Source: Gammaproteobacteria bacterium
GTDB lineage: Bacteria; Pseudomonadota; Gammaproteobacteria; Eutrophobiales; Eutrophobiaceae
DNA: 64,000 nt
Reading direction: 5' to 3'
NCBI GenBank assembly: GCA_965243115.1
Contig: CBDEUD010000003.1
Location: 2,392,325-2,456,324 of the forward strand
Shown: piece after piece, positions 1 to 28,145 of the stretch
How the letters are laid out: each line of letters starts with the position of its first letter
Numbering within the stretch: position 1 is the first letter of the stretch
Program-made: the position numbers and the translations under genes
The notes under the pieces: generated by a model
Told to the model about the DNA's origin: nothing
The model's input: only the letters and a program-made list of their open reading frames with translations
The model's database searches: none

Positions 1-26
1 GATTCTTGCATAGAGGGGGAACATAA

Positions 27-2363
27 ATGAACGCAAGCCATCGTTTTTACAAAATATTCAGCATAGTTTTTGTGCTTTTGGTTTCAGTAACATCCGGCAT
101 TGCTTACGCACAGCTTCTGGAAGAAATTGTCGTCACTGCTCAAAAACGAGAGCAAAGGTTGCAGGATGTCGGCTTATCTGTGACGGCTTTCAGCGGTAAC
201 CAGATCAGGGAGCTCGCTTACACCAACAGCATTGATATCGGCCAACAGACCCCCGGGTTGCAGATTACGCAACTTCATGCTTCTACCACTCAGCTCAATA
301 TTCGCGGTGTGTCACAAAACGATTTTGCCGTTCACCTGGAAGGACCCATTGCAACGTATGTCGACAATGCTTATTCCAGCTCCATGGGTACGGCGCATGC
401 ACAGATTTTTGACCTGGAACGTGTGGAGGTATTGCGTGGTCCACAGGGTACACTCTTTGGTCGTAACGCCACCGGGGGATTACTTCATTTTCTGAGCAAA
501 AGACCCACCGAGGAATGGGAGGGGTATGGCGAATTCACGTACGGGAGTTACGATCAAATTAAATTTGAAGGTGCGGTGGGCGGCCCGTTAAGTGACAGGC
601 TTCGAGGAAGGATATCCTTCGCTACCAACAACCACGATGGGATTATGGAAAATCGTATTGGTCCGGACTTGAGAGACGCAGAAACATACTCAGTACGAGG
701 TCAATTGGAGTTTGACGTAACCGATAAATTTCAAGCCTATGTAAAACTGGCCTACTCGGAAGACGATAGCAGGGGCAACACTTACACACATTCGCCATCC
801 ACCTTTATAACCGCATCGGGGCTTGGTGAACTAATTACTGACACTGGTCAACCCCCACTTTTTCTCAGCTTGTTCGATCCACTCGACGGTATGGCCGACC
901 TGATTCTTGGTCCATGTTCCGGCTGTGATGCTTTCGGGTACCGGGAGCCCGACGACGATCCTCACACCGGTTCCTTCGATTTTATTCCATCCTTTGTAAG
1001 GGATATCTTTAATGCCCAGCTTGAGCTGACCTGGGACTTGGAAAATTTTACTGTGACTTCTATAACGGATTACCTTTATGTGAACAGGACATACGGTGAG
1101 GACACTGATGGTTCACCCTTTAACCAGGTAACTTTTGTGGATGTTGAAGACAGAGACCAGATTTCACAGGAGATTCGATTTAATGGCGAGACCGATAAAT
1201 TTACCTGGGTGGCCGGTGCATACTACCTGGATTTTGATGTCTTCTCAGTAGGCACGGTTACTCAGGACGCAGGCCCATTAACAACTTTTGGCTTTGACGG
1301 TTCAATGGGTGCTGTGGCAGGCCCTTTTACATTCCCACCCGCGCCGACGGGGCCATTTCCTCCGTTTGCCGGGCTTCCCTTTGATCACACTGGAACGACA
1401 AAATCAACGTCATGGGCGATTTTTGGGCATGTAGAAACTAAATTGTCAGAGCAGTTTTCCCTCGTAACGGCATTACGTTACACGGAAGATGATAGAGACA
1501 TGGATTTGACCATTGATAATCGTCAGTTGTTCATGAGTCCATTCGCCATCGTGTCGCTCGATCCTTCCAATTCACCTTTTGCGAGTTTGGAATTTGAAAA
1601 TGTGTCAGCCAAGATTCAGCTTGACTGGACACCCAATGAAGATTGGCTCCTGTATGCGGGCTTCACACGGGGACACAAGGCAGGCAACTTTTCCCAACCG
1701 TTCTTTATTCCCGCTGACTTAAGTGAACTGCCCCATGATGAAGAAGTGTTACACAGCTTTGACATAGGTGCGAAAGGGGTAATGCTTGATGGCAGACTGA
1801 GATTGAACGCTAGCATTTTCTATTATGACTACAAGGACTACCAGGCTTTTTTCTTTGAAAATCTGGCTCAGAAGGTGAGTAATTTTGATGCGAATGCCCT
1901 GGGAGCCGAGATCGAATTGGTATTCAATCCAGTGGATGCTCTGGATCTGTCATTTGGTGTATCGCTACTGGATACAGAGGTTGAGGATGTCGGTACACCC
2001 ATTGGTGTTCTCGATAGGGAGTTGCCATTTGCACCGGACGTTTCTTTCAATGGTCTGGCACGTTATACCTGGCCGGTCTTTGGTGGCAATCTATCTGCAC
2101 AGGTTGATTTCAATTACGTCGATGACTTCTGTTTCGGTGTCATCTGTCACCCACTTGAAGAGGAAGATTCCTATATCGTTGCAAATACCCAGTTGAGCTA
2201 CACCACAGATGATAAAAGGTGGCGTTTGGCGGCATTTGTTAAAAATGTGGGTGATGAGGAATATCGCAAAGCGGCTGTTGAATCAAGCTTTGCCGGGTTT
2301 AGTTCTGTTGTTTTTTCAGATCCCAGATGGTATGGGGGAAGTATTGCTTATCAGTGGAAGTAA
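27..2363 (+). CDS. TonB-dependent outer-membrane receptor
   Basis: N-terminal signal peptide (MNASHRFYKIFSIVFVLLVSVTSGIAYAQ). Plug-domain motif EEIVVTAQKREQRLQDVGLSVTAF. 778 aa, beta-barrel-like length, aromatic C-terminus (YQWK). SD-like agaggggga lies upstream. Confidence 0.85.
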   Translation: MNASHRFYKIFSIVFVLLVSVTSGIAYAQLLEEIVVTAQKREQRLQDVGLSVTAFSGNQIRELAYTNSIDIGQQTPGLQITQLHASTTQLNIRGVSQNDFAVHLEGPIATYVDNAYSSSMGTAHAQIFDLERVEVLRGPQGTLFGRNATGGLLHFLSKRPTEEWEGYGEFTYGSYDQIKFEGAVGGPLSDRLRGRISFATNNHDGIMENRIGPDLRDAETYSVRGQLEFDVTDKFQAYVKLAYSEDDSRGNTYTHSPSTFITASGLGELITDTGQPPLFLSLFDPLDGMADLILGPCSGCDAFGYREPDDDPHTGSFDFIPSFVRDIFNAQLELTWDLENFTVTSITDYLYVNRTYGEDTDGSPFNQVTFVDVEDRDQISQEIRFNGETDKFTWVAGAYYLDFDVFSVGTVTQDAGPLTTFGFDGSMGAVAGPFTFPPAPTGPFPPFAGLPFDHTGTTKSTSWAIFGHVETKLSEQFSLVTALRYTEDDRDMDLTIDNRQLFMSPFAIVSLDPSNSPFASLEFENVSAKIQLDWTPNEDWLLYAGFTRGHKAGNFSQPFFIPADLSELPHDEEVLHSFDIGAKGVMLDGRLRLNASIFYYDYKDYQAFFFENLAQKVSNFDANALGAEIELVFNPVDALDLSFGVSLLDTEVEDVGTPIGVLDRELPFAPDVSFNGLARYTWPVFGGNLSAQVDFNYVDDFCFGVICHPLEEEDSYIVANTQLSYTTDDKRWRLAAFVKNVGDEEYRKAAVESSFAGFSSVVFSDPRWYGGSIAYQWK

Positions 2364-2494
2364 GTCAGACTACAGAGCTCCGTTTTCTTTCCATGCGAGT
2401 TTTCTGATTGTCGCGCTCTGTTTAAATGTTACGGTCCTGAGTTTTTGACGGCGCGTTTTAATTCTTTTGGAGGGTCGCTCTATGTACGCCATTC

Positions 2495-3664
2495 GTGCCG
2501 CCTATATTCCCAATGATAAGGGAAATTCCAATGACTAATCACAATAATCATTTTCTGCAAAACGCCTGGTACTGCGCAAGCTGGAGTGACGAGGTCGGCG
2601 AGGGAATGTTCGAGCGTTTGGTCGCCAGGCACCCCCTCTTGTTATACCGGACCGCGGACGGTAATCCCGTCGCTTTGAAGAACATGTGCCCGCACCGGTT
2701 TTCTCCGCTGCACACCGGGAAGCTGGTTGACGATATCATCCAATGTCCCTATCACGGGCTACGTTTCGACAGCTCAGGAGCTTGCGTATATAACCCTCAC
2801 AGTGGCGGCCATATCCCCGAAACGCTATGTGTCCGCACCTATCCCGTCGTCGAGCGTTATGACATGCTCTGGGTATGGCTCGGCGAACCCGAACTAGCCA
2901 ATCCTGATACTATCCCTGATTTCAGTTATCAAACCGATTCAAGCTTTCACAGAATCGGCGGCGTCATCGATGTCAACGCTGGTTATCAAATGATCACTGA
3001 CAACCTGATGGATTTGTCGCACGTAGAGTTCGTTCATAAGGGTGGTCTTGGCACTGACTCCATAACTCGCGGCGAGCTTGAGATCCTTCAGGATGGCACT
3101 ACGGTGTGGGCCAACCGTTGGTGTCCTGACGGTCCACCACCGCCGGCGATGGCTCCAATGCTCGATAACCCCAACCAGGCGTACGATTTTTGGATGAATA
3201 TGCGTTGGGATGCGCCGGCACACATGGTCATCGATGCGGGCCTCGCCCCGAGGGGGAAGCCGCGGGAAAACGGGATTTGGATCTACGGTACCGCCATCCT
3301 GACGCCGAAAGATGAGACCTCGACAACTTATTTTTGGACAGTAACGCGCAATTACGCGACGGATGAGCCGGCTATGGATGCAATGTGGCAGGCGTCTATC
3401 GATATAGCCTTCCTCGAGCAGGACAAACCGACTATTGAAGCACAGCAGGCAATGATAGCGTTGCACGATGCAACAGACATCGACGATGGATTGAGGCCCG
3501 TGGTGCTTGGCTCAGACGCAGGACCGGTGCGTTGCCGCCATGTACTGAAGAAACTACGCGATAGTGATGGGGTGGAGTTACCTGATCCCCGTAATCCCGC
3601 ATTGAGCGAACTCGTCGAAAACTCACGCGGCAGCTACAACGGGCGTGTAACACCGATTGTCTAG
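2495..3664 (+). CDS. Rieske [2Fe-2S] non-heme iron oxygenase, VanA/phthalate-dioxygenase-like alpha subunit
   Basis: Rieske motif CPHRF...CPYHGLRF. N-terminal NAWYCASWSDEV is typical of VanA-type O-demethylase/PDO-family oxygenases. The true start is probably the internal MTNHNN (~2531). Confidence 0.8.
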   Translation: MPPIFPMIREIPMTNHNNHFLQNAWYCASWSDEVGEGMFERLVARHPLLLYRTADGNPVALKNMCPHRFSPLHTGKLVDDIIQCPYHGLRFDSSGACVYNPHSGGHIPETLCVRTYPVVERYDMLWVWLGEPELANPDTIPDFSYQTDSSFHRIGGVIDVNAGYQMITDNLMDLSHVEFVHKGGLGTDSITRGELEILQDGTTVWANRWCPDGPPPPAMAPMLDNPNQAYDFWMNMRWDAPAHMVIDAGLAPRGKPRENGIWIYGTAILTPKDETSTTYFWTVTRNYATDEPAMDAMWQASIDIAFLEQDKPTIEAQQAMIALHDATDIDDGLRPVVLGSDAGPVRCRHVLKKLRDSDGVELPDPRNPALSELVENSRGSYNGRVTPIV

Positions 3665-3817
3665 GCGGCGCTCCAATCCATGCCGGGTCTATAACTCCAA
3701 CCAAGTACACTTTATACAAAAGCAACATATGGGGAGCCGGCCTGATACGGTCAGGTATTTATAGTTTAAAGGTAAAATATTCAGAACTTCAGGTTAATAA
3801 AAGAAGGATAATTAAAG

Positions 3818-4450
3818 ATGGCAATTTTAAGGTTATCAAATGGTGAACTAATTACCGGCTACTCAGAAATTAATGAACTGATTGTGCCAGCGGGGATGGA
3901 AGTAGGCAGGTTTAACTACCCGGATCCCCTTGAAGCCAAAGTTAAGTCAATGGAAAAACCACTAAACCAGGATGGGGCAGAGTTTATATTTAGCGAGCTC
4001 TCTGCAAATGTGGAGAGTGTGGTGAAGGACCTGGACTTTAGTTACAACTATCGTCGCGCCGGCATTTTCGTTCCAGCAAAGGAAAAGGGTGGAACAAGTG
4101 CATTTTCTATGGCTGGTGATGACCAGATGCAAGTTGCATCTGCAGAGATGACCCCAGCTGATCTCGCTAATTATATGGCACCGCACATCTTGCGAGCGAA
4201 TAACTTACATTTCTCATTCCAGGGAGCCTTTATTAAAGGCATGCAATTGGGGTCAGATTTGCAGGCGATGATTTACGTGCTAGCGGGAGAGTGGCAACGG
4301 CTTGATCCAAATATACTATCCTGGGTTGTTTTCCCGAGTGGAGAACCCGTGATTGGGTTAAGTTTTTTTGATCAAAAACCAAACGCTAGCGGCGCACACG
4401 AGACAGACGTATTTCCTGATACTGAAATTTCGGGAACAGTTAAGTTTTGA
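3818..4450 (+). CDS. hypothetical protein (no recognisable family) on a low-GC segment
   Basis: 210-aa ORF with an AAGGAT SD-like sequence upstream. The flanks are AT-rich, in contrast to the window average. Confidence 0.45.
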   Translation: MAILRLSNGELITGYSEINELIVPAGMEVGRFNYPDPLEAKVKSMEKPLNQDGAEFIFSELSANVESVVKDLDFSYNYRRAGIFVPAKEKGGTSAFSMAGDDQMQVASAEMTPADLANYMAPHILRANNLHFSFQGAFIKGMQLGSDLQAMIYVLAGEWQRLDPNILSWVVFPSGEPVIGLSFFDQKPNASGAHETDVFPDTEISGTVKF

Positions 4451-4594
4451 GCGATTTAGATTATTCAAGTTGAAATGATGTTTAACAGGTTTTGAAGTGA
4501 ATATCTTCTACCAAAGCTGCGTCAATAAAGCTTTGTCAGAGCCATATGTTCGTCACGCGGAATCAGTGCTTGGATTAAACATGAGGGCTTCGGT

Positions 4595-5614
4595 ATGGGC
4601 GTGATGTGGGGAGAAAGAGTAGACGGAGGATATAAATCTTCCCTTGTATATCGCTTTTTTAAACCCAAAGATATCACCGGAAACGAGATAAATGGTCTCG
4701 GTGAGTCAGTAAAGCGCCGCCCCACTCCCATATATCACTGGTTTGGAATCCTTAAATTACCGTTTAATCGCGTATGGTGGCAATTGATCGCCTACACAAT
4801 GTTCAGGGGAACAAAGGCGACTGATGCTTATATGAAGACATGCCGAGAGTATGCTGAAAAGCCCTATGATCCTGTTGCAGAAAAAAGGGTCAACAAGTCA
4901 CCTGAAGAATGGACTGCTGACATCAAAAACTACGCCAAAGAGAAAGGTGCTGATCTTGTTGGTACGATGCGTATGCGGGAGGAATGGGTTTTCGAGGGGC
5001 TCGAGGTAAAGGAAAAATGGATCATAATACTGGGTTTGAAGATGAATTTTGATGAGCTTGCCAAGTCACCGGAACCTGAGGGTGTCGAAGCTGTAATAAA
5101 AACCTATGCTGATGGGAATATTCTCGTCCAGGACATCTCCAACTGGTTGCGAAGTAAAGGTTGGAGTGCAAATGGCTATGGTGGCCCCATGGCCAGTGCC
5201 GTGAATATGATACCTGTTGCACTCGCCGCAGGTTTTGGTGAGTTGGGTAAGCATGGCTCTATTATCAATCGCGACTTGGGCTCAAACCTGAGGTTGGCTT
5301 ATGTCCTCACTGACATTCCCCTGGTAGATGAAGATGAGGAAGACGATTTCGGGGCAGACAGTTTTTGTACTGCTTGCCAGATATGTACAAAGGCCTGCCC
5401 CCCTGCAGCAATTTTGTCGGAAAAACAGATGGTGAGAGGTGTAGAGAAATGGTACGTGGATTTTGACAAGTGTGTACCTTTCTTTAATGACCATGGTGGC
5501 TGTGGGGTATGTATTGCAGTTTGTCCCTGGAGTCGACCAAATGTCAGACCGAAACTCTTGTCAAAAATGTTAAAACAGAAATCGAAGCGAGAGATGTCGG
5601 CTTCGCTGCAATGA
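4595..5614 (+). CDS. QueG/reductive-dehalogenase superfamily iron-sulfur protein (epoxyqueuosine-reductase-like, truncated architecture)
   Basis: Two 4Fe-4S motifs, CTACQICTKACP and GGCGVCIAVCPWS. The segment GFGELGKHGSIINRDLGSNLRLAYVLTDIPL aligns by recall with QueG GLGWTGKHSLILNREAGSFFFLGELLVDIPL. The N-terminal WTADIKNYAKEKGADLVG resembles the QueG N-terminus. The C-terminal HEAT-like extension of QueG is absent. Confidence 0.65.
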   Translation: MGVMWGERVDGGYKSSLVYRFFKPKDITGNEINGLGESVKRRPTPIYHWFGILKLPFNRVWWQLIAYTMFRGTKATDAYMKTCREYAEKPYDPVAEKRVNKSPEEWTADIKNYAKEKGADLVGTMRMREEWVFEGLEVKEKWIIILGLKMNFDELAKSPEPEGVEAVIKTYADGNILVQDISNWLRSKGWSANGYGGPMASAVNMIPVALAAGFGELGKHGSIINRDLGSNLRLAYVLTDIPLVDEDEEDDFGADSFCTACQICTKACPPAAILSEKQMVRGVEKWYVDFDKCVPFFNDHGGCGVCIAVCPWSRPNVRPKLLSKMLKQKSKREMSASLQ

Positions 5615-5762
5615 AAGTACTCGCCATAGATGAAGCGAATCTTTCATATGACATGCTGCTTTGGGTGGCGCCCGGCAGTACTTTTGGGTCCGGCTGGCAT
5701 ATTCTGATATCAAACATACGCTGAAGGCGTAGAGATGGATTGCACAAACATGGCGCATCATT

Positions 5763-6944
5763 GTGAGGAGCGAGAAAGTGACCATAAATACCCCTGAATT
5801 TACTGACGAGGAGATTCTCGGTATCCGAGAGGGCATTAACGGTATTAAACGGCCCCTTCCGGCGCGTTGTTATCATGACGAAGAGATCTACCGGTTTGAA
5901 GTCGAACATATCCTGAAGAAAAACTGGTTGTGCGTAGGGCGTTGGGACTACGCGCAAAACCCCGGGGATTATTTCACCCGGACGATGTTCGGTGAATCAA
6001 TCGTCATCGTCAGGGACAAGGATCACAAACTTCACGCACTGATCAATGTCTGCCGGCACCGGTTTTGCCAGGTGCTGGAAGATGGCTCTGGTAACGTCAG
6101 CATGCTTGTGTGCCCTTTCCATGGCTGGACCTATAACCTGAATGGGAGCCTGCGTGCTGTCGGTGTCCGGAAAATAGAAGGCATGGATAAGGACAAATGC
6201 CGATTGCCGTCCCTGCGCCTTGAGGAGTGGCAGGGATTTATCTTTATCAATTTCGATCCGGATGCGCAGGCCCTGGGGCCGCAGCTTGAGGCAGTCAACC
6301 CGATTATGGATCTCTACGGCGTCTCGAAATACCGACATCAGCTCACCCAGGATTTCGATTCTCCGTGGAACTGGAAGCTGAATTTTGAAGCAGGCTATGA
6401 AGGCTACCACCATGCCGGGCTGCACAATGAGCGCTTCAACCATATCGAACCGGCATCCGGCTCGCGGCCGCTCTGGTTTGGTGAGATCTGTGGCTCCTAT
6501 GGGGTGCCCTTTGCTGATGATATCCCCCGGGAGGAGACACGTCCCTTTGGTTTACCGCCGCACATGAAAAGTGAAGATGATCCTGTTGAAATGGATACCT
6601 TCATCGCGGTGTATCCGGCTTTCATGATGTATGTGAACAGTTACCAGGTTTCCTACACGCTCGTGCAACACCAGGGCGTGGACATCAATATCGGGTCGAC
6701 GCCTCAGGCATTTGCACCCTGGGCGCTGGAAGCGCCCAATGCCGGGGAAATCATTGACGAGTTCAAGGAATTCACCGTGGAAGTACAAAAAGAGGACACC
6801 CTTGGCTGCACGATGATGCAGAAAGGTCTCAAGTCCCAAAGCGCCCGGGCTGGTTTCATCCATCCGTTGGAAGTGCAGATGAACCATTATCATAACTGGT
6901 ACCTGGATCAGTTCGAAAAGGTCAGGAATGCCGCTAAGGCGTAG
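5763..6944 (+). CDS. Rieske non-heme iron oxygenase alpha subunit (GbcA/Stc2/CntA-like, candidate N- or O-demethylating monooxygenase)
   Basis: Rieske motif CRHRFCQ...CPFHGWTY. ~390 aa alpha-only architecture with N-terminal EEIYRFEVEHILKKNWLCVGRWDY, typical of this subgroup. Confidence 0.75.
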   Translation: MRSEKVTINTPEFTDEEILGIREGINGIKRPLPARCYHDEEIYRFEVEHILKKNWLCVGRWDYAQNPGDYFTRTMFGESIVIVRDKDHKLHALINVCRHRFCQVLEDGSGNVSMLVCPFHGWTYNLNGSLRAVGVRKIEGMDKDKCRLPSLRLEEWQGFIFINFDPDAQALGPQLEAVNPIMDLYGVSKYRHQLTQDFDSPWNWKLNFEAGYEGYHHAGLHNERFNHIEPASGSRPLWFGEICGSYGVPFADDIPREETRPFGLPPHMKSEDDPVEMDTFIAVYPAFMMYVNSYQVSYTLVQHQGVDINIGSTPQAFAPWALEAPNAGEIIDEFKEFTVEVQKEDTLGCTMMQKGLKSQSARAGFIHPLEVQMNHYHNWYLDQFEKVRNAAKA

Positions 6945-6958
6945 ATGTATAACATCGC

Positions 6959-7507
6959 TCACCCACCTAACCAATCCTGCAGAAACTGCGCCACGCTACG
7001 GTCCACCAGGATACGAAGTCGCGGGGTGTCATCCAGCCTATGGATAATGACCGGCAGGTGCTGCAACCGGGTCAAGGCATAGCGGCCGGAGGGAAAGGCG
7101 CTGTCATGGAGATCGACCGAACACCCTTCCGCCAGTCTGGCCACGGCATCCTCACCGGATATGTCGATGATGCTCCAGGCATCGGTCATATCCGTGACAA
7201 TGGCGGTGGCGTCACCGGCTGCGTCCCGTAATGCGCTTGAAACACTGTCGATATCCGGCGCCGGGTTAACCAGCAACCAGTCATTGGGCGCCAGCCAGTA
7301 TGCTGTCGGCTCGTTGTTTACCTTCTCCTGCGGGCTTTGCGGCAGGGTGCTTCCAATCAGCTTCTCAAACGGGGCCGGATTTATCCCGGCGCGTGGCCGC
7401 ACCTGCAGTCGCAGCTTGCGTGTACCGTCAGGCATGCAATCGATCTCCTTCCGGGTCCCAGGCAACGGGTGTACTGAGCTGTGCTGGATGAACCTGGCCA
7501 TTGTCAT
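6959..7507 (-). CDS. soxG: sarcosine oxidase gamma subunit (SoxG-like)
   Basis: Small ORF immediately downstream of soxA, in the operon position expected for the gamma subunit. The ORF overlaps the soxA 3' end, so the real start is probably the internal MPDGTRK (~7435). Confidence 0.6.
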   Translation of the reverse strand: MTMARFIQHSSVHPLPGTRKEIDCMPDGTRKLRLQVRPRAGINPAPFEKLIGSTLPQSPQEKVNNEPTAYWLAPNDWLLVNPAPDIDSVSSALRDAAGDATAIVTDMTDAWSIIDISGEDAVARLAEGCSVDLHDSAFPSGRYALTRLQHLPVIIHRLDDTPRLRILVDRSVAQFLQDWLGG

Positions 7508-10391
7508 ACACGTTCACCTTCTCACCCAGGCGCTTACTGCCGTCCTGCACCAGGCCGAGACCCACGTAACGTTGCAGGTTGGGACTGTAACAGGCCGAAG
7601 TCACGTAACCCTGGGTAGGTGCGGGTGCGCCCGAATGGTTCACATCGATAACATGCGCACCGGCTGTAAGAACGCCTCCTTCTCCCACAGGTGTAAGACC
7701 CACAAATTCAAAACGTCCGTTACTTACGTTGTGAGGGCGGCTCAGGGAACGCTTGCCCAGGAACTCGCCCTGCTTGCCGTCAGCTACATGGCCCCAGCCG
7801 ACGTCCCTGGGCGTGGTGTTGCCATCGGTATCGCTGCCCACGTGCAGGTATCCCTTCTCGGTCCGCAATATCCCCAGGGTTTCGACGCCGATCGGCACCA
7901 CTTGCAGGTCTTCACCGTGTTGCAGCAAGCGCTCCCACAAGGCCGGCCCCCAATCGGCAGGAACGTTCAGTTCATAGCATAGCTCGCCTGTATAGCTGGC
8001 CCTGAGTACGCGTACGGGTATGTCATCCAGCGTACCGGTGGCGATTGCCATGTGGGGTAACCCGTTGCCGCTGAGGTCAATACCGGACTCCAGCCGTTCA
8101 AGCAACTCTCTCGACCGCGGGCCGGATACGGCGATATTCGCCCACTGGCTGGTAACCGGCGTCAGCAATACGTCCAGGTCCGGCCAGTCGCCCTGCAGCA
8201 GGGCCTCCATCCAGGTGTGGATGCGATTCGCCCCGGCGCTGGTGGTATGCACCAGGTAGTGGTCGTCAGCCAGACGGGCAAAAATACCGTCGTCGATGAT
8301 AACGCCGTTTTCGTTCAGCATGAGACCGTAACGGGCCCGGCCGGTTCCCAGCGAGGTGACGTTGTTGATGTAAACGCGGTCCAGGAATTCAGCGGCGCCC
8401 GGTCCGCGCACTTCGATTTTCCCCAGCGGCGACCCGTCAAAGACGGCTACCAAGGTACGGGCGGCCACGGCCTCCCGGGCAATGGCCTGTTGTTCGCTTT
8501 CACCATTGCGCGGGTAAACCCGGGGACGGCGCCAGGTGCCGTAATCTTCAAATTGCGCGCCCAGTTGTTCGTGGCAGGCAAACAGCGGACTGCGCTGCAC
8601 CGGCGCATAGAAATCGCCCCTGTCACGTCCGGCAATAGCGCCCAGGGTTACCGGCATGTAGAAAGGCCGGAAGGTGGTAGTTCCCACCTGGTCAGGGGTC
8701 CTGTCCGTACGCTCCGCCAGGGCCAGCAGGGCATTCACGTTGCTGGTTTTGCCCTGGTCGACGGACATGCCGGTGGTGGTATAGCGTTTCATATGCTCCA
8801 CTGAGGTATAGTTCTCGGCTACTGCAATATCGATATCCCGCAGGGTCACGTCATACTGGAAATCGATCCACTGGCGGTCCGGGCGTTGTTCACACCCGGC
8901 CAGTTCAATATGCAGGGCGCCAGTGCTCTTCGAGCGCGTCCGGGGACGGACTTGAAGTCCGTCCCCAACGGCAGCGAGACCTGCCACCCGGCCCTGTTCC
9001 AGTGCATCGTCCAGGGACAGGACACCGGCTACCATACCCGCTACGTGCACATGGGGAGGGATCTCGTCCGGCACGAACGCACCCAGCGAGACGTCAAAAC
9101 GCAGCCTGCCGCGGGCCTGGGTGAACAGGTGCACCGCCGGTTGCCAGCCTCCGGACATGGCGACACAGTCACACTGCAACGTTGCCAGGGTTTCCCGGCT
9201 GCCCCGCCTGGCAACGGACACGCTGCGCACGCCTTTATCACCCCGGCAATCCAGCGGGACCGCATTGTGAAACACCGTCATGCCCTGATCACGCAATTCC
9301 CGGGCGCCCCTGCCGGCAAGTGACTTACGCGCATCGATCATGGCAACAACGTCAATACCTGAGTCCATGAGTGCGCCAGCTACGCCGTAGGCACTGTCGT
9401 TGTTGGTCGCAATGACGACGCGCTGACCCGGCGCCACTGCGTAGCGCTTGCAGTACTGTTGTACGGCGCCGGCCAGCATGACGCCCGGCCGGTCGTTGTT
9501 GGCGAAGAGCAGCGGCTGCTCGATGGCGCCGGTGGCGAAGATAATCTCGCGCGCATGGATCTTCCACAACCGCTGTCGCGGTCCTTCGCCCTGTCCTGTC
9601 TCACGCCGGTCGCTCAGCGTCTCGGAAGCGATTACCACGCGGTGGTCGAACCAGGCCGAAGCCGTGGTGTTGGTCAACAGGGTAACGTTGTCCCGCTGTT
9701 GCAAAGTACGGGCGGCGCGTTCCAGCCACACCTTCCCCGGTCTGCCATCGATGTCCTCTTCATTCCAGAGCAGGCTGCCGCCCACGTGGCTGTCCTGTTC
9801 AACGACGATAACCCGCGCCGCTTTCCTGCTCGCAGCCAGCGCCGCGCCCAGGCCGGCAGGGCCGCTGCCCACTACCAGGACATCACAATGCGCGTTATGG
9901 TGAACATAGTGATCGGGGTCATGGCCCACAGGCAGTTTGCCCAGTCCCGACAGGCGGCGGATAACCCCCTCGTACCAGTGCCAGTGCGGCCAGATAAAGG
10001 TCTTGTTGTAAAACCCGGCAGGCCAGAGGAAATGCAGGTAATCCAGACTGCGCCCGATATCAAACTTCACACCGGGCCAGCAGTTTTGACTGCGCGCCAC
10101 CAGTCCATCGTACAGAGGCTGCAACGTTGCCCGTACATTGGGTTCTTCCAGAGCGCCCTGTCCCACCGTCACCAGCGCATTGCACTCTTCAGCGCCGGCA
10201 GCAAGAATACCCCGGGGACGATGATACTTGAAACTGCGCCCCACCACGCGTACGCCGTTGGCCAGTAAGGCCGATGCCAGGGTGTCGCCTTTGAAGCCGC
10301 TGTATTGTTTGCCGTCGAAACTGAATGACAACGGCTTGCCACGGTCGATCCTGCCGCCCGTTTCAAACCGCATGGGTTGGGATGCAGTCAT
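7428..10391 (-). CDS. soxA: heterotetrameric sarcosine oxidase alpha subunit (SoxA-like, with C-terminal GcvT-like folate domain)
   Basis: 987 aa. N-terminus GGRIDRGKPLSFSFDGKQYSGFKGDTLASALLANGVRVVGRSFKYHRPRGI is the classical SoxA signature. Rossmann VLVVGSGPAGLGAALAA. C-terminal aminomethyltransferase-like region. Confidence 0.9.
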   Translation of the reverse strand: MTASQPMRFETGGRIDRGKPLSFSFDGKQYSGFKGDTLASALLANGVRVVGRSFKYHRPRGILAAGAEECNALVTVGQGALEEPNVRATLQPLYDGLVARSQNCWPGVKFDIGRSLDYLHFLWPAGFYNKTFIWPHWHWYEGVIRRLSGLGKLPVGHDPDHYVHHNAHCDVLVVGSGPAGLGAALAASRKAARVIVVEQDSHVGGSLLWNEEDIDGRPGKVWLERAARTLQQRDNVTLLTNTTASAWFDHRVVIASETLSDRRETGQGEGPRQRLWKIHAREIIFATGAIEQPLLFANNDRPGVMLAGAVQQYCKRYAVAPGQRVVIATNNDSAYGVAGALMDSGIDVVAMIDARKSLAGRGARELRDQGMTVFHNAVPLDCRGDKGVRSVSVARRGSRETLATLQCDCVAMSGGWQPAVHLFTQARGRLRFDVSLGAFVPDEIPPHVHVAGMVAGVLSLDDALEQGRVAGLAAVGDGLQVRPRTRSKSTGALHIELAGCEQRPDRQWIDFQYDVTLRDIDIAVAENYTSVEHMKRYTTTGMSVDQGKTSNVNALLALAERTDRTPDQVGTTTFRPFYMPVTLGAIAGRDRGDFYAPVQRSPLFACHEQLGAQFEDYGTWRRPRVYPRNGESEQQAIAREAVAARTLVAVFDGSPLGKIEVRGPGAAEFLDRVYINNVTSLGTGRARYGLMLNENGVIIDDGIFARLADDHYLVHTTSAGANRIHTWMEALLQGDWPDLDVLLTPVTSQWANIAVSGPRSRELLERLESGIDLSGNGLPHMAIATGTLDDIPVRVLRASYTGELCYELNVPADWGPALWERLLQHGEDLQVVPIGVETLGILRTEKGYLHVGSDTDGNTTPRDVGWGHVADGKQGEFLGKRSLSRPHNVSNGRFEFVGLTPVGEGGVLTAGAHVIDVNHSGAPAPTQGYVTSACYSPNLQRYVGLGLVQDGSKRLGEKVNVYDNGQVHPAQLSTPVAWDPEGDRLHA

Positions 10392-10705
10392 ACCGTTTCT
10401 TCCCGGTCCATATCCGGGGCCGCCTTATCGAGACGATACACGGCGAGAATCTCGTGGGTTACCGTATGACGGGCAACATTGAACCACTGCCGGCACCCGT
10501 AACGGTGCTGCCAGCGTTCGAAGTGGACCCCCTTGGGATTATCACGGTAAAACAGGTATTCGGCCCATTCCCGGTCCGACACCTGCTCTGCCGGTTCGGG
10601 CCGGGCTATATGGGCCTGCCCGCCGGAGACAAACTCGTTTTCATCACGTTCACCACAGAAAGGGCAGGAGATCCGGAACATGGCGATCCTTCTAGTGAGC
10701 CACAC
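10388..10705 (-). CDS. soxD: sarcosine oxidase delta subunit (SoxD-like)
   Basis: MFRISCPFCGERDENEFVSGGQAHIARPEP matches the SoxD family. ~97 aa counted from MFRISC. Sits between soxB and soxA. Confidence 0.8.
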   Translation of the reverse strand: MWLTRRIAMFRISCPFCGERDENEFVSGGQAHIARPEPAEQVSDREWAEYLFYRDNPKGVHFERWQHRYGCRQWFNVARHTVTHEILAVYRLDKAAPDMDREETV

Positions 10706-11936
10706 CCGCCGCGGCCGATTCGTCCACCAGGGCGCCGCTTTCGAAACGTTCCAGGGAGAAAGGTTTGATCAGCGCATGGGGCTGGTCCTTGACAATGGTA
10801 GAAGCCATGGTATCGCCGCTCGCCGGGATGGCCTTGTAACCGCCGGTGCCCCAGCCGCAGTTGATATACAGGTTCTGCACCGGCGTCCTGCCCATGATGG
10901 GACTGGTATCGGGCGAGATATCCACGATGCCGGCCCACTGGCGCATGAGCTTTAACCGGCTGAAACGTGGATACAGGGTCAGGAACGCCGCCACGCAGGA
11001 TTCGATGTTATCGTAACTGCCGCGCTGGGCATAGGAATTGTACACGTCGGCGCCAGCGCCCAGGACGATCTCGCCGCGGTCCGACTGGCTCGCATACATG
11101 TGTATGGCGCCGGACACGGTCACCAGATTAAGCGCCGGTTTAATCGGCTCCGATACCATGGCCTGCAGCGCCATGCTGGTGAGCGGCAGGCGGAAACCCG
11201 CCATCTTCGCCAGTACGCTGGTGTGGCCGGCGACGGTGATATGCACTTTTTCCGCGGAAATATCTCCCAGCGAGGTTTGTACCCCGGTAACCATGCCGTG
11301 GCTGATGTTAAAGCCTGTCACGGTACAGTTCTGGATGATATCCACTCCCAGGGCATCGGCGGCGCGGGCATAACCCCAGTTGACCGCATCATGGCGCGAG
11401 ATGCCGCCGCGCCATTGGATAAATCCACCGGCTACGGGAAAGCGCGCATTGATGTCAATGAGCGGTTCAAGTTCTTTGATTTGCTGCGCTGTCAGCATCT
11501 CGGAATCTATACCGTTAAGCTGGATGGCATTGGTCCAGCGCTTCAGCATCTCCATGTCATGATCGCTATGGGCAAGATTCAGCACCCCGCGCTGGCTGAA
11601 CATCACGTTGATATTGAGATCGCGGCTCATGCTTTCGTATAACTTCAGGGAGTGCTCGAAGAACGCGGCGCTCTCGGGATAGAAATAATTGGAACGGGTA
11701 ACCTGGGTATTGCGGCCGCTGTTGCCGCCGCCTATCCAACCGCGTTCCAGCACTGCCACATTAGTAACACCATGCTTTTTTGCCAGGTAATAGGCCGTGG
11801 CAAGACCATGCCCTCCCCCGCCGATAACGACCACGTCATAGGATTTCTTCGGTTCCGGCGAACGCCAGACCGGCTGCCAGCGTTTATGCCCTCTCAGCGC
11901 ATGGTAGAGGATTTTGGCAAAAGAATACTTCTCCAC
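10692..11936 (-). CDS. soxB: sarcosine oxidase beta subunit (SoxB-like FAD flavoprotein)
   Basis: VVVIGGGGHGLATAYYLAKKHGVTNVAVLERGWIGGGNSGRNT is the dinucleotide-binding motif of SoxB/DAO-family proteins. 414 aa. Confidence 0.9.
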   Translation of the reverse strand: MEKYSFAKILYHALRGHKRWQPVWRSPEPKKSYDVVVIGGGGHGLATAYYLAKKHGVTNVAVLERGWIGGGNSGRNTQVTRSNYFYPESAAFFEHSLKLYESMSRDLNINVMFSQRGVLNLAHSDHDMEMLKRWTNAIQLNGIDSEMLTAQQIKELEPLIDINARFPVAGGFIQWRGGISRHDAVNWGYARAADALGVDIIQNCTVTGFNISHGMVTGVQTSLGDISAEKVHITVAGHTSVLAKMAGFRLPLTSMALQAMVSEPIKPALNLVTVSGAIHMYASQSDRGEIVLGAGADVYNSYAQRGSYDNIESCVAAFLTLYPRFSRLKLMRQWAGIVDISPDTSPIMGRTPVQNLYINCGWGTGGYKAIPASGDTMASTIVKDQPHALIKPFSLERFESGALVDESAAAGVAH

Positions 11937-11980
11937 GACTGGTACCTGATGGTCTTAGAATAATATGTTACGGAATCCGG

Positions 11981-13126
11981 TTATTCCATCTCGTTGACAA
12001 CGATATTCTCCCCCGTGTTGCGCAACAACTCAATCCACCTGTCAACGTGTTCCCTGTCCGAGGGAACAGGCGTTATGCCGGTTTCGACTTCGCCGTTCAG
12101 TATGGCCTCGACTACCAGAGAAACCGGGACTGAAACGAGTCTTGCCATGGCAGACCCCCGTTCATCACCGGTGCTGTCCAGGAGATATTGCCGGGCCCAT
12201 ACCTGCCTGCCCGTTTTGTCCCTGGCGCTTAACTCCACACTCAGTACGACCCGGTCCGGTTCCCCTTCGGCATACTGGTGTTGCCGCCATAACTCTTCAC
12301 TCAACCCGGCAAGGCGTTGCTCACCGGCTGCCCCGGTTGCGTTCTCCACCGTGCGGAAAATATCCTCCCAGGCCTTTGCCCAACCCTCAAGCCGCAGTGT
12401 GCCGCGTACGAAGTGTTCAATCGTCCAGTTACTTTCAATCCCGTATTGCCTGATGAACGGCAACGAATCCCGGTTGGGGAAAGCCTCAAAACGTTCTCCG
12501 TTGACCAGGAAAGCATCGATTTCCCTGTAAGGCGTCCCGGTGTTGCGTTCCTCACCCCGGGCAATCCAGCGGGCCGGTGTATTGAGTGCCTTCAGCACAC
12601 CCAGCGGAGACCAGGAAAACTTGTAGGTGAATTCATCCGCCTCAAGCGGAAAACCGCCGCAGTAAGAATGAAATGAGATGATGTTCCCAGGGTCAAATAC
12701 ACCGCTACGCCGGTAGCTGTCCAGCAGTGCATGGGCGAACAGGTGGTCCAGTCCCGGGTCAAGGCCGCACTCATTGACGAAGCATAATTGTTTTGCCCTG
12801 GCTTGCGCATCAAGCATTGCCATCTCTTCAGAAATGTAACTCGAAGTAACAAAGTGCGCACCGGTTTCCAGGCAAAGTCCTGCCGCACGCAGGTGCATGG
12901 GTGCGGGCAACATGGATACCACTACATCACCCGGCTTGACTCTCGATGCCAGCAGCGTCCAATCAAATTCCCTGGCAGCGGTATCAGCGGAGCGTATGCC
13001 TGCAAACGCGGTCTGTGCTTTCGCCAGGGTCCTGTTCCATACGGTGATCGGATAATCCGACAGCGCCAACCTGCGTATACCCGGCACAGATGACAGGCCT
13101 GCTCCAAGCCAGTGAACGTGGTGCAT
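11981..13126 (-). CDS. saccharopine dehydrogenase family oxidoreductase, LYS9-like (saccharopine reductase type)
   Basis: Blocks VTSSYIS, NECGLDPGLDHL, SYCGGFP, YKFSWSPLGVL, FPNRDS and RGTLRLEGW align with yeast Lys9 blocks VTSSYIS, MNEIGLDPGIDHL, SYCGGLP, YKFSWSSRGVL, YPNRDS and RGTLRYQGF (from recall). Confidence 0.8.
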   Translation of the reverse strand: MHHVHWLGAGLSSVPGIRRLALSDYPITVWNRTLAKAQTAFAGIRSADTAAREFDWTLLASRVKPGDVVVSMLPAPMHLRAAGLCLETGAHFVTSSYISEEMAMLDAQARAKQLCFVNECGLDPGLDHLFAHALLDSYRRSGVFDPGNIISFHSYCGGFPLEADEFTYKFSWSPLGVLKALNTPARWIARGEERNTGTPYREIDAFLVNGERFEAFPNRDSLPFIRQYGIESNWTIEHFVRGTLRLEGWAKAWEDIFRTVENATGAAGEQRLAGLSEELWRQHQYAEGEPDRVVLSVELSARDKTGRQVWARQYLLDSTGDERGSAMARLVSVPVSLVVEAILNGEVETGITPVPSDREHVDRWIELLRNTGENIVVNEME

Positions 13127-13141
13127 GTTTCTATCCCATCC

Positions 13142-20080: not shown

Positions 20081-20109
20081 GAGTTACACATTTCCCGGTA
20101 TTGGGGGCT

Positions 20110-21990: not shown

Positions 21991-22001
21991 TCATAACCCA
22001 T

Positions 22002-22030
22002 AAAAAGAAACGGCGGGCATATGCCCACCG
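22002..22030 (-). terminator. rho-independent terminator downstream of the large TonB receptor gene
   Basis: On the minus strand: stem CGGTGGGCAT/ATGCCCGCCG (one mismatch, contains the palindrome GGGCATATGCCC) followed by TTTCTTTTT. Confidence 0.6.
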
Positions 22031-22053
22031 TCCCTTAACCAACCACTACGCCC

Positions 22054-25020: not shown

Positions 25021-25078
25021 GCAATACTCATTTTTTTTTCATGAAATCCTCATAAGTATAGTACATCAAGATATAAAA

Positions 25079-28134: not shown

Positions 28135-28145
28135 GCCGGCCGTTT

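What the first reader, a model, noticed from the sequence alone, without database searches (positions are those of the whole stretch)
2495..6944. Two Rieske oxygenases bracketing a QueG/reductive-dehalogenase-superfamily Fe-S protein, suggesting a halo- or methoxy-aromatic catabolic module
All four ORFs are on the plus strand: a VanA-like Rieske oxygenase, a low-GC hypothetical, a QueG/RdhA-superfamily protein with two 4Fe-4S motifs, and a second Rieske oxygenase. Aerobic, non-respiratory reductive-dehalogenase homologs that act on halogenated phenolics are known from marine bacteria and from Comamonas (BhbA). Placement between O-demethylase-type and hydroxylating Rieske oxygenases would fit catabolism of halogenated or methoxylated aromatics, such as algal or sponge bromophenols. 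No reductase or ferredoxin component is encoded nearby.
Basis: partly seen in the sequence, partly recalled or inferred. Interest (0 to 1): 0.55.

Follow-up and report, generated by a model that had tools for sequence, protein, structure and literature searches.

The report
Minimal dehalogenase-like enzyme in aromatic-degradation operon
A marine bacterium carries a conserved, TonB-receptor-fed gene cluster that pairs Rieske oxygenases and a cupin with an unusually small, uncharacterised relative of vitamin-B12 reductive dehalogenases, probably to strip a substituent (likely a halogen) from aromatic compounds before ring breakdown.

Summary
Four intact plus-strand genes sit at the stated coordinates, behind a TonB-dependent receptor. 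ORF4 (4595-5614) is not QueG. By HMM, sequence and predicted fold it lies on the reductive-dehalogenase (RdhA) side of the superfamily. It keeps both [4Fe-4S] motifs and the residues aligned with the PceA catalytic pair (Y171, R233). At 339 aa, with no Tat signal, membrane helix, duplicated domain or reductase domain, it fits none of the four described RdhA architectures. Its family is uncharacterised and occurs in at least 586 bacterial species.

The "hypothetical" ORF3 is a cupin with an acireductone-dioxygenase-like fold. Across 11 distinct related loci the stable core is this cupin, an ORF5-type Rieske oxygenase, an NTF2-like protein, a TBDR and MarR. RdhA-like genes occur in 0-3 copies per locus, often tightly packed as RdhA-Rieske-RdhA. 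The VanA/DdmC-like ORF2 is accessory. The ~150-bp spacers in the window are scars of three gene-sized deletions.

An aromatic catabolic module is well supported. A halogenated substrate is plausible but unproven, as is cobalamin binding. Verdict: a new variant of a known kind, of moderate interest.

The parts
27..2363 (+). TonB-dependent outer-membrane receptor, probable uptake component of the cluster
   Evidence: Plug and TonB_dep_Rec_b-barrel domains. It is not BtuB (TIGR01779 48 bits against a cut-off of 600). Orthologues of 55-81% identity lie beside the RdhA-like gene in L002, L003, L008, L088, L090 and L092.
2482..2517 (+). Remnant (first ~12 codons) of a deleted EthD-like gene
   Evidence: The window lacks L002 6196-6525. 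The flanks align at 2450-2511 and from 2510 onward. The L002 gene matches the EthD family TIGR02118 at its cut-off.
2531..3664 (+). ORF2: VanA/DdmC-type Rieske non-haem-iron monooxygenase (oxygenase component only), an accessory member of the module
   Evidence: Rieske and VanA_C domains. DdmC matches at E=5e-82 with 39.6% identity over 338 residues. Present in the window and L002, truncated in L001 and deleted in L088.
3665..3817 (+). Spacer that is the scar of a deleted NTF2-like (Lumazine_bd_2) gene; the 3' remnant lies at about 3710-3742
   Evidence: Window 2510-3719 aligns with L002 6526-7737 and window 3719-4556 with L002 8106-8944, so L002 7738-8105 is missing from the window.
3818..4450 (+). 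ORF3: cupin with an acireductone-dioxygenase-like fold; candidate non-haem-metal dioxygenase; core member of the module
4497..4571 (+). Remnant (first 25 codons) of a deleted Asp/Glu-racemase-superfamily gene inside the ORF3-ORF4 spacer (4451-4594)
   Evidence: tblastn gives 60% identity over 25 aa, E=4e-5. The window lacks L002 8945-9625.
4595..5614 (+). ORF4: minimal (339 aa) soluble RdhA-superfamily protein with 2x[4Fe-4S] and a presumed corrinoid; the focus of the finding
   Evidence: RDH HMM 109 bits, PceA 1.5e-23, pLDDT 95.5. Invariant Y171, R233, K219, H220 and 8 Cys. No Tat signal or TM helix.
5778..6944 (+). ORF5: alpha-only Rieske ring-hydroxylating-type oxygenase (CntA/GbcA-like branch); core partner of both the cupin and the RdhA-like gene
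   Evidence: Rieske and Ring_hydroxyl_A domains. CntA 2e-33. GbcA model 121 bits against a cut-off of 670. Orthologues of 50-94% identity occur in L002, L003, L007 and L088-L093.

Best explanation
The region 27-6944 is a streamlined copy of a modular, horizontally mobile catabolic operon of coastal marine Gammaproteobacteria (the nearest named relative is a Halieaceae MAG) that takes up and degrades a class of substituted aromatic compounds.

Proposed order of action (inferred):
1. The TonB-dependent receptor imports the compound.
2. ORF2, a VanA/DdmC-type monooxygenase, removes an O-methyl group and exposes a phenolic OH.
3. ORF4 takes electrons through its two [4Fe-4S] clusters to a corrinoid and reductively eliminates a ring substituent, most probably a halogen ortho to that OH. 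Tyr171 would act as proton donor and Arg233 would stabilise the phenolate, as in PceA and NpRdhA.
4. ORF5 hydroxylates the ring.
5. The ORF3 cupin cleaves the ring or an enediol intermediate.

Electrons for the oxygenases and for ORF4 must come from redox proteins encoded elsewhere.

Shown here: gene identities, fold, conserved residues, conserved gene linkage and the deletion scars. Inferred: the cofactor, the substrate class and the order of steps.
For: RdhA-type identity of ORF4:
- NCBIfam RDH 109 bits against QueG 50 bits.
- PDB sequence matches: PceA 1.5e-23, a second PceA 2e-21, NpRdhA 1e-18, QueG 1.4e-7.
- AF2 pLDDT 95.5. Foldseek: PceA E=8e-18, NpRdhA TM 0.62-0.72, QueG TM 0.41-0.44, then the B12 chaperone CblC.
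- ORF4 Y171 aligns with PceA Y246 and the matching Tyr of NpRdhA; R233 aligns with PceA R305 and the matching Lys of NpRdhA. Both residues and all 8 Cys are invariant in 44 family members. Y171 and R233 are also kept in all three co-located paralogue groups.

The module is real:
- The same genes recur in L002, L088, L089, L090, L091 and L092. Intergenic gaps are as small as 8-60 bp, and in L002 the racemase-like and RdhA-like genes overlap by 1 nt.
- The wide spacers in the window are deletion scars.

Aromatic context:
- DmpG/DmpF, an aldehyde dehydrogenase directly upstream of the RdhA-like gene, MarR, extra Rieske oxygenases and a carbazole-type Aromatic_hydrox oxygenase with its ferredoxin and reductase.

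Peripheral, substrate-widening role for the RdhA-like genes:
- 0-3 copies per locus around a constant cupin and RHO core.

Chemical logic:
- The best-characterised relative of ORF2 is DdmC (39.6% identity). From my own knowledge, the product of DdmC is an ortho-chlorophenol.
- All characterised catabolic RdhAs act on ortho-halophenols (PMC10463259).
- L090 encodes a 2x[4Fe-4S] ferredoxin and a Pyr_redox_2 reductase inside the cluster, comparable to the redox genes next to NpRdhA (PMC10463259).
Against: - No member of this 335-aa family has been characterised, and neither corrinoid binding nor dehalogenation has been shown.
- ORF4 scores below the curated RDH cut-off (109 against 160 bits), and Pfam finds only the Fe-S domain.
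- No cobalamin riboswitch, B12 transporter or B12 biosynthesis gene lies in any locus.
- Across the broad family (84 loci, many phyla) there is no conserved partner and no aromatic context. Sequences stay 43-50% identical at nearly fixed length across phyla, which could indicate one conserved, non-xenobiotic function.
- The pocket position occupied by R552 in NpRdhA is an invariant Phe here.
- The cupin and RHO core exists without any RdhA-like gene in L007 and L093.
- No halogen-specific gene is linked.
- ORF3 lacks the canonical ARD HxH...E...H motif in its sequence.
Confidence: 0.45

Rival explanations
1. The module is an aromatic or heteroaromatic catabolic operon, but the RdhA-like proteins carry out a reductive reaction other than dehalogenation. 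Examples would be reduction of an epoxide or arene oxide (as QueG does on a nucleobase), dehydroxylation, or removal of another leaving group.
For: - The superfamily already contains a non-dehalogenating member, QueG.
- The family is very widespread in aerobic soil and marine heterotrophs (at least 586 species) and is unusually uniform in length and sequence.
- One homologue lies beside NicX and another beside an Asp/Glu-racemase-superfamily gene; I read these as possible pyridine-ring catabolism, from my own knowledge of those families.
- The family has its own invariant N-terminal motif SGNxINGLGE..RRPTPIYH and a GELGKHGS motif; neither appears in the aligned PceA and NpRdhA segments.
- No halogen-related gene is linked.
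Against: - The residues aligned with the Tyr and Arg/Lys pair typical of dehalogenating RdhAs are invariant.
- Sequence and fold are clearly nearer to PceA and NpRdhA than to QueG.
- Multiple divergent paralogues per locus resemble the expansions of RdhA genes.
Confidence: 0.25
2. The RdhA-like proteins are redox partners: Fe-S electron carriers, possibly without a corrinoid, that feed the adjacent reductase-less Rieske oxygenase.
For: - No reductase or ferredoxin for the Rieske oxygenases is encoded in the window.
- The RdhA-Rieske-RdhA arrangement with gaps of 8-60 bp recurs in L088, L089 and L091.
- L002 has two separate RdhA-like and RHO pairs.
Against: - The complete RdhA core fold and the putative catalytic Tyr/Arg are invariant, which pure electron transfer would not require.
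- The RHO and cupin core functions without any RdhA-like gene in L007 and L093.
- In L003, L008 and L090 the ORF4-type gene follows an aldehyde dehydrogenase rather than a Rieske gene.
- From my own knowledge, known Rieske oxygenases use [2Fe-2S] or [3Fe-4S] ferredoxins, or fused reductases.
Confidence: 0.08
3. The neighbourhood serves methylated-amine or quaternary-ammonium catabolism. ORF5 would be a GbcA/CntA-type N-demethylating oxygenase working with the adjacent soxBDAG sarcosine-oxidase-type operon, and ORF4 would be unrelated.
For: - The best NCBIfam hit of ORF5 is glycine betaine monooxygenase GbcA and its best PDB hit is carnitine monooxygenase CntA.
- soxGADB lies immediately downstream in the window, in L001 and in L091.
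Against: - The GbcA score is 121 bits against a cut-off of 670. Only the Rieske domain and the start of the catalytic domain align (residues 31-227), and biphenyl dioxygenase scores almost as well.
- sox is convergent, has 60% GC against 46-53% for the cluster, and is absent beside the module in L002, L088, L089, L090 and L092.
- The constant partners are a cupin, an NTF2-like protein, MarR and a TBDR, and DmpFG is nearby in two loci.
Confidence: 0.08
4. There is no functional unit. The four genes are independent neighbours in a variable, decaying genomic island.
For: - Spacers of 145-160 bp separate the genes, with no clear promoters or terminators.
- Three gene-sized deletions occurred in the window, another in L001 and another in L088.
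- Identity to L002 is mosaic: 96, 90, 78 and 65% for ORF2 to ORF5.
- The broad RdhA-like family has no conserved partner.
Against: - The same gene families are linked in at least 9 independent loci with differing gene order, which argues for selection on the linkage.
- Relatives show tight or overlapping gene junctions.
- All four remaining genes are intact and full-length relative to their homologues.
Confidence: 0.07
5. ORF4 is a short but genuine epoxyqueuosine reductase (QueG) acting on tRNA.
For: Some database sources name homologues "epoxyqueuosine reductase". The QueG model gives a weak hit.
Against: - TIGR00276 scores 50 bits against a cut-off of 200, and only residues 206-315 (the Fe-S region) align.
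- There is no room for QueG's C-terminal tRNA-binding domain; that QueG has such a domain is from my own knowledge.
- The fold is closer to RdhA.
- Genomes carry 2-3 paralogues.
- The gene sits in a catabolic operon.
Confidence: 0.02

Closest known systems
Catabolic (non-respiratory) reductive dehalogenases NpRdhA, BhbA and JtRdhA
   Same: Cytoplasmic proteins of aerobic marine or soil Proteobacteria, with no Tat signal and no RdhB. They share the corrinoid-domain fold and two [4Fe-4S] motifs, and the residues aligned with the catalytic Tyr and basic residue are conserved. They are embedded in aerobic aromatic catabolic clusters. Like truncated NpRdhA, ORF4 depends on separately encoded redox partners (PMC10463259).
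   Different: ORF4 is half the size (339 against about 700 to over 1000 aa). It lacks the vestigial duplicated cobalamin-binding domain that defines the catabolic RdhAs, and it lacks the PDOR reductase domain. Identity is only 18-22%. The position of NpRdhA R552 is an invariant Phe. ORF4 has its own invariant N-terminal motif.
Respiratory RdhA (e.g. PceA of Sulfurospirillum multivorans)
   Same: This is the best sequence and Foldseek match (1.5e-23 and 8e-18). It has a single-core architecture without a duplicated domain. The aligned residues Y246/R305 are kept, and an aromatic residue sits at the W376 position.
   Different: ORF4 has no Tat signal peptide and no RdhB anchor gene, is about 125 aa shorter, and occurs in an aerobic host within a catabolic operon.
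"Simplified cytosolic" RdhA-like proteins noted in metagenome surveys (PMC12219181)
   Same: Cytosolic, single-core proteins with a short N-terminus and no vestigial domain; none has been characterised.
   Different: Those described average 395 aa and come from Desulfobacterota and Chloroflexota in anoxic cold seeps. This family is about 335 aa, occurs in aerobic Proteobacteria, Acidobacteriota, Gemmatimonadota and Actinomycetota, and has a distinct N-terminal motif. Whether the two groups are one clade was not tested.
Epoxyqueuosine reductase QueG
   Same: Same superfamily, similar size, and the same arrangement of two [4Fe-4S] motifs.
   Different: Much weaker match (50 bits; TM 0.41-0.44). 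There is no tRNA-binding C-terminal domain. The family has several paralogues per genome and lies in catabolic operons.
Dicamba O-demethylase DdmC and vanillate O-demethylase VanA (for ORF2)
   Same: Rieske plus VanA_C architecture, and 39.6% identity to DdmC over the full length.
   Different: No cognate ferredoxin or reductase is encoded nearby. No equivalog model is passed. The substrate is unknown.
Acireductone dioxygenase (ARD) cupins (for ORF3)
   Different: Identity is 11-13%. Neither Pfam nor a profile search against the PDB gives a hit. The canonical HxH...E...H ligand pattern is not evident. ORF3 is linked to Rieske oxygenases rather than to methionine salvage genes.

Membership tests
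QueG (tRNA epoxyqueuosine reductase, TIGR00276) | Score at or above the curated equivalog cut-off (200 bits) over the full-length model | tested here: not met
   50.2 bits; only residues 206-315 align to model positions 134-246. PDB QueG matches at 1.4e-7 and 6e-4.
QueG (tRNA epoxyqueuosine reductase, TIGR00276) | C-terminal tRNA-binding (HEAT-like) domain after the Fe-S domain | tested here: not met
   ORF4 ends 24 residues after the last cluster motif (C310-P311, length 339). Foldseek TM-score to QueG is only 0.41-0.44.
RdhA superfamily (reductive dehalogenase catalytic subunit, TIGR02486) | Curated HMM cut-off (160.35 bits) | tested here: not met
   109.4 bits, E=3e-31, covering residues 139-313. 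This is the best-scoring family but falls below the cut-off.
RdhA superfamily (reductive dehalogenase catalytic subunit, TIGR02486) | Corrinoid-domain fold followed by two [4Fe-4S] motifs (CX2CX2CX3CP and CXnCX2CX3CP) | tested here: met
   AF2 pLDDT 95.5. Foldseek gives PceA 8e-18 and NpRdhA TM 0.62-0.72. C258/261/264/268-P and C293/303/306/310-P are invariant.
RdhA superfamily (reductive dehalogenase catalytic subunit, TIGR02486) | Active-site Tyr proton donor with a partner Arg or Lys | tested here: met
   Y171 aligns with PceA Y246 and R233 with PceA R305, and with the matching Tyr and Lys of NpRdhA. Both are invariant in 44 homologues and in all local paralogues. This rests on alignment only.
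RdhA superfamily (reductive dehalogenase catalytic subunit, TIGR02486) | Bound corrinoid cofactor and carbon-halogen bond reduction | not testable with these tools
   From my own knowledge, RdhAs bind B12 base-off without a sequence motif. No B12 riboswitch or transporter is linked. Biochemistry is needed.
Respiratory RdhA | N-terminal Tat signal (RRxFxK) and an adjacent rdhB membrane-anchor gene | tested here: not met
   No RR motif in ORF4, and only 2 of 44 relatives have a chance RR match. No small membrane-protein gene is adjacent.
Transmembrane RdhA | N-terminal transmembrane helices fused to RdhA | tested here: not met
   The maximum 19-residue Kyte-Doolittle hydropathy is 1.36, at residue 199 inside the core fold; nothing comparable occurs at the N-terminus.
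Catabolic RdhA (NpRdhA, BhbA, JtRdhA) | [quoted passage not shown] | tested here: not met
   ORF4 is 339 aa. Its residues 116-317 align to residues 362-575 of the 704-aa NpRdhA chain 4ras_A, and nothing matches the N-terminal half of NpRdhA.
Catabolic RdhA (NpRdhA, BhbA, JtRdhA) | C-terminal PDOR-type reductase domain (self-sufficient subclass) | tested here: not met
   There are no Fer2, FAD_binding_6 or NAD_binding_1 hits, and the protein ends at residue 339.
VanA/DdmC-type Rieske monooxygenases (ORF2) | Rieske [2Fe-2S] domain followed by a VanA_C catalytic domain | tested here: met
   PF00355 at 1.8e-19 and PF19112 at 8e-47. DdmC at 5e-82 with 39.6% identity.
GbcA/CntA quaternary-amine monooxygenases (ORF5) | Equivalog HMM cut-off (NF058607, 670 bits) | tested here: not met
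   121 bits, covering residues 31-227 only. CntA matches at 2e-33 over residues 33-221.
Acireductone dioxygenase (ORF3) | ARD cupin fold | tested here: met
Acireductone dioxygenase (ORF3) | Sequence-level family membership and the canonical 3-His-1-Glu metal site | tested here: inconclusive
   No Pfam hit at E up to 1 and no PDB profile hit at E up to 10. H123, H131 and E158 are invariant but not in the HxH spacing.

The most novel reading that the evidence does not exclude
The ~335-aa family defined by SGNxINGLGE...Y171...GELGKHGS...R233 would be a fifth, minimal architectural class of the RdhA/QueG superfamily. It is used by aerobic bacteria in at least six phyla. In coastal Gammaproteobacteria it would be mechanistically coupled to Rieske oxygenases, either as a new B12/Fe-S reductase acting on an oxygenase product (a non-halogen substrate) or as an unprecedented redox partner, rather than being an ordinary dehalogenase.
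Probability: 0.2. Interest if true: 0.8.

Novelty: new variant of a known kind. Interest (0 to 1): 0.57.

Why it matters
Characterised reductive dehalogenases are either oxygen-sensitive respiratory enzymes or large catabolic enzymes of 700 aa or more.

If the protein is active, a soluble single-domain version of 335 aa, found in hundreds of aerobic soil and marine species, would be:
- the simplest scaffold for studying B12-dependent reductive elimination;
- an attractive candidate for bioremediation;
- a possible major, overlooked route for turnover of natural organohalogens, such as algal and invertebrate bromophenolics, in oxic coastal water.

The conserved TBDR, cupin, Rieske and RdhA-like module gives a defined genetic system, of 4 genes in this window and 8 in the fuller L002 version, in which to test this.

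If the family is not a dehalogenase, it would represent a third chemistry in the superfamily.

Tried and rejected
- Exact-sequence look-ups of ORF4 and of the 100%-identical ORF3 cluster found no record, so the source genome was not identified.
- The sigma-70 promoter and terminator scan was uninformative: 3 promoter-like sites, all on the minus strand, fewer than in shuffled sequence, and only weak hairpins.
- The repeat search found only the shared Rieske-motif DNA.
- Rfam found no riboswitch in the window cluster or in six related loci.
- De novo clustering of neighbours over 84 loci, and Pfam scanning of 69 putative operon partners, found no conserved partner for the broad family. I therefore rejected the idea that the whole family is tied to Rieske oxygenases.
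- A profile search of the ORF3 family against PDB sequences found nothing.
- The metagenome scan for ORF3 added only 2 loci.
- Literature searches found no paper linking this short family, Halieaceae or TBDR clusters with reductive dehalogenases.
- I considered and rejected: QueG (scores and architecture); a BtuB role for the TBDR (48 bits against a cut-off of 600); and sox-linked amine catabolism as the main reading (convergent orientation, different GC, linkage not conserved).

Full report
OBSERVATION.

The ORF list confirms four plus-strand ORFs at 2495-3664, 3818-4450, 4595-5614 and 5763-6944. A TonB-dependent receptor (27-2363) precedes them, and a convergent soxGADB operon (6959-11936) follows.

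Pfam and NCBIfam give these assignments:
- ORF2: Rieske plus VanA_C.
- ORF3: no hit.
- ORF4: only 4Fe-4S dicluster domains in Pfam. In NCBIfam it scores 109 bits on the RDH model (TIGR02486, cut-off 160) and 50 bits on QueG (TIGR00276, cut-off 200).
- ORF5: Rieske plus Ring_hydroxyl_A.

Comparison with orthologues puts the real starts at ATG 2531 for ORF2 and GTG 5778 for ORF5.

No FNR-type reductase or stand-alone ferredoxin is found anywhere in the 64 kb apart from the nuo subunits.

WHAT ORF4 IS.

Sequence comparison with solved structures ranks PceA (1.5e-23), a second PceA (2e-21) and NpRdhA (1e-18) far ahead of QueG (1.4e-7).

In those alignments ORF4 Y171 falls on PceA Y246 and on the corresponding Tyr of NpRdhA. 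R233 falls on PceA R305 and on the corresponding Lys of NpRdhA. The pocket position held by W376 in PceA and by Arg in NpRdhA is F297.

An alignment of 44 homologues shows several invariant features: Y171, R233, F297, a GELGKHGS motif, and all eight cysteines (CX2CX2CX3CP, then CX9CX2CX3CP). It also shows a family-specific N-terminal motif, SGNxINGLGE..RRPTPIYH.

The AlphaFold model is confident (pLDDT 95.5). Its best structural matches are PceA (E=8e-18) and NpRdhA (TM 0.62-0.72). QueG follows at TM 0.41-0.44, and then the B12 chaperone CblC.

The family has no Tat motif and no membrane-grade hydrophobic segment.

PMC10463259 divides RdhAs into four architectural subfamilies: respiratory (Tat plus RdhB), transmembrane, and two catabolic types that both carry a vestigial duplicated cobalamin domain. 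ORF4 fits none of them. The nearest published description is the uncharacterised "simplified cytosolic" type from anoxic cold-seep metagenomes, which averages 395 aa (PMC12219181).

HOW WIDESPREAD.

The word-indexed search returned thousands of hits. The top 120 are nearly all of similar length (305-367 aa, apart from one 212-aa fragment) and cover 87-100% of the query. They are annotated only as "4Fe-4S dicluster domain-containing protein" or mislabelled as QueG.

A scan of one genome per species found at least 586 species carrying the two signature peptides. They span Alpha-, Beta- and Gammaproteobacteria, Acidobacteriota, Gemmatimonadota, Actinomycetota, Binatia and Myxococcota. The closest is a Halieaceae MAG at 65% identity.

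An exhaustive profile search found 785 clusters (at 50% identity) with E of 1e-30 or better. About 30 of these match over the full length, including the N-terminal motif.

Several genomes hold 2-3 paralogues.

Across 84 loci there is no conserved neighbour. Transporters are the commonest, in at most 9 loci. Among 69 likely operon partners, no ferredoxin, reductase or B12 gene recurs.

THE LOCAL MODULE.

Within the close subclade (62-82% identity to ORF4, all marine metagenomes or MAGs) the picture is different.

Among 11 distinct loci:
- The ORF3-type protein and an ORF5-type Rieske oxygenase occur together in 9.
- These usually come with a 127-aa NTF2-like (Lumazine_bd_2) gene, a TBDR and a MarR regulator.
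- An ORF4-type RdhA-like gene is present in 9.
- Two further paralogue groups can be added: B1 (about 340 aa, 44-45% identical to ORF4) and B2 (38-40% identical). This gives 0-3 RdhA-like copies per locus.
- All paralogues keep Y171 and R233, and all keep the eight cysteines except L002_B323, where the last three positions are alignment gaps.

L088, L089 and L091 show RdhA-Rieske-RdhA. In L089 the gaps are 60 and 8 bp, and an SDR gene ends 19 bp upstream.

In L003, L008 and L090 the ORF4-type gene directly follows an aldehyde dehydrogenase. L008 and L090 adjoin DmpG (and DmpF in L008), which are meta-cleavage lower-pathway genes. L003 carries a carbazole-type Rieske oxygenase with its ferredoxin and reductase, and a hydrolase. 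L090 has a 90-aa 2x[4Fe-4S] ferredoxin and a Pyr_redox_2 reductase inside the cluster.

The VanA-type gene is accessory. It is intact only in the window and L002, is 5'-truncated in L001, and is reduced to its last 69 nt in L088.

DELETION SCARS.

DNA alignment with L002 shows that the window lacks three gene-sized segments:
- an EthD-like gene (L002 6196-6525; annotation);
- the NTF2-like gene (L002 7738-8105);
- an Asp/Glu-racemase-superfamily gene (L002 8945-9625).

Remnants remain at window 2482-2517, 3710-3742 and 4497-4571. The last still encodes 25 N-terminal codons (60% identity, E=4e-5).

The 145-160-bp spacers that might have suggested separate transcription are therefore scars of an operon that is tightly packed in L002. 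There the racemase-like and RdhA-like genes overlap by 1 nt.

L001, which is otherwise 99% identical to the window upstream, has a different deletion. Identity drops from 99.2% to 93.4% exactly at that junction.

Identity to L002 is mosaic: ORF2 96%, ORF3 90%, ORF4 78%, ORF5 65% and TBDR 77%.

GC content of the cluster is 45-54%, against 56% for the window and 60% for sox. tRNA genes border the cluster in L002 and L088.

Together these points indicate a mobile, recombining catabolic island.

ORF3.

ORF3 has only 23 homologue clusters, all 209-210 aa. Its model is confident (pLDDT 94).

No sequence-level support exists. The canonical ARD ligand spacing is not visible, although H123, H131, E158 and Q160 are invariant.

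I read ORF3 as a divergent ARD-fold cupin and a candidate C-C-cleaving dioxygenase, with moderate confidence.

ORF2 AND ORF5.

ORF2 is 39.6% identical to dicamba O-demethylase DdmC over 338 residues.

ORF5 is nearest to carnitine monooxygenase CntA (2e-33) and to the GbcA model (121 bits against a cut-off of 670). Only the Rieske domain and the start of the catalytic domain align, and biphenyl dioxygenase scores nearly as well.

MECHANISM.

Shown: gene identities, folds, conserved residues, gene linkage and the deletion history.

Inferred: the TBDR imports a substituted aromatic compound. ORF2 O-demethylates it to a phenol. ORF4 uses two [4Fe-4S] clusters and a corrinoid to eliminate an ortho substituent reductively, most probably a halide, with Tyr171 as proton donor and Arg233 stabilising the phenolate. 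ORF5 hydroxylates the ring. The ORF3 cupin cleaves it.

Two points make the order chemically sensible. All characterised catabolic RdhAs require an ortho-halophenol (PMC10463259). And, from my own knowledge, the product of DdmC is itself an ortho-chlorophenol.

The variable copy number of RdhA-like genes around a constant cupin and RHO core fits peripheral, substrate-range-widening enzymes.

I put the existence of an aromatic catabolic module at about 0.75, and the full statement, including dehalogenation, at about 0.45.

RIVALS.

- A non-dehalogenating reductive reaction (0.25) is the main rival. It is favoured by the family's breadth and uniformity and by the lack of any halogen- or B12-linked gene.
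- A redox-partner role for the reductase-less Rieske oxygenase (0.08) is suggested by the RdhA-Rieske-RdhA arrangement. It is weakened by the invariant catalytic residues and by loci that lack RdhA-like genes.
- Amine catabolism with sox (0.08) rests on weak sub-threshold hits and on an adjacency that is not conserved.
- Coincidental neighbours (0.07) and QueG (0.02) are unlikely.

NOVELTY AND SCORE.

RdhA homologues in aerobes, and "cytosolic" RdhA-like genes in metagenomes, are already known.

New here are three things: the definition of a minimal 335-aa architecture with its own motifs; its very wide distribution in aerobes; and its conserved coupling to a TBDR, cupin and Rieske module in coastal Gammaproteobacteria. 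I found no paper describing any of these.

I rate it a new variant of a known kind, with interest 0.57.

Noticed in passing
window 2450-2520, 3665-3817, 4451-4594 (compared with L002 6134-9660): Three gene-sized deletions (EthD-like, NTF2-like and Asp/Glu-racemase-like genes) left short coding remnants in the window. L001 and L088 carry different deletions at the same locus, so the locus is a hot spot of gene loss.
   Followed up: yes
window 1-2512 vs 2853-7428 compared with L001: Identity to the near-identical contig L001 drops from 99.2% to 93.4% exactly at the deletion junction. Identity to L002 is mosaic (96, 90, 78 and 65% for ORF2 to ORF5). This suggests recombination within the cluster.
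   Followed up: partly
L088 12360-12447 and 12801-13109; L002 13349-13419: tRNA genes lie directly after the cluster, followed in L088 by an AbiEii toxin fragment. This hints that the module sits at a tRNA-associated island integration site.
   Followed up: no
window 34967-45299 (mostly minus strand): A second putative aromatic cluster: molybdopterin oxidoreductase, UbiX-like flavoprotein, two FAD_binding_4 oxidases, a UbiD decarboxylase, a cytochrome c, a SnoaL_4-CDGSH fusion protein and a third Rieske ring-hydroxylating oxygenase (44055-45299).
   Followed up: no
window 18635-29948: Two TPR-sulfotransferase proteins, a TPR protein fused to a 2OG-Fe(II) oxygenase domain, a 988-aa TonB-dependent receptor, a methyltransferase and a DUF885 protein lie together. 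Their function is unknown.
   Followed up: no
window 31280-34820: A bacterial angiotensin-converting-enzyme homologue (Peptidase_M2, E=1e-217) lies next to a POT-family peptide transporter.
   Followed up: no
window 6959-14200 (minus strand): The heterotetrameric sarcosine-oxidase-type operon soxBDAG is followed by a saccharopine-dehydrogenase-like gene and an AlaDh/PNT_N gene. This may be an N-alkyl amino acid or opine oxidation unit. The sox genes lie beside the cluster in L091 as well.
   Followed up: partly
window 17314-18621 (+): A 435-aa ORF has no Pfam hit even at E up to 1. I did not test whether it is a real gene.
   Followed up: no
L001 1-5600: The low-GC stretch (45-50%) extends at least 5.6 kb upstream of the TBDR, across amidohydrolase, luciferase-like monooxygenase, GntR and MFS genes. 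The island may therefore be larger than the part seen in the window.
   Followed up: partly
L005 10001-12306: A 57%-identical RdhA-like homologue lies directly upstream of a NicX-family gene. From my own knowledge NicX is a 2,5-dihydroxypyridine dioxygenase, so some family members may act in N-heterocycle catabolism.
   Followed up: no
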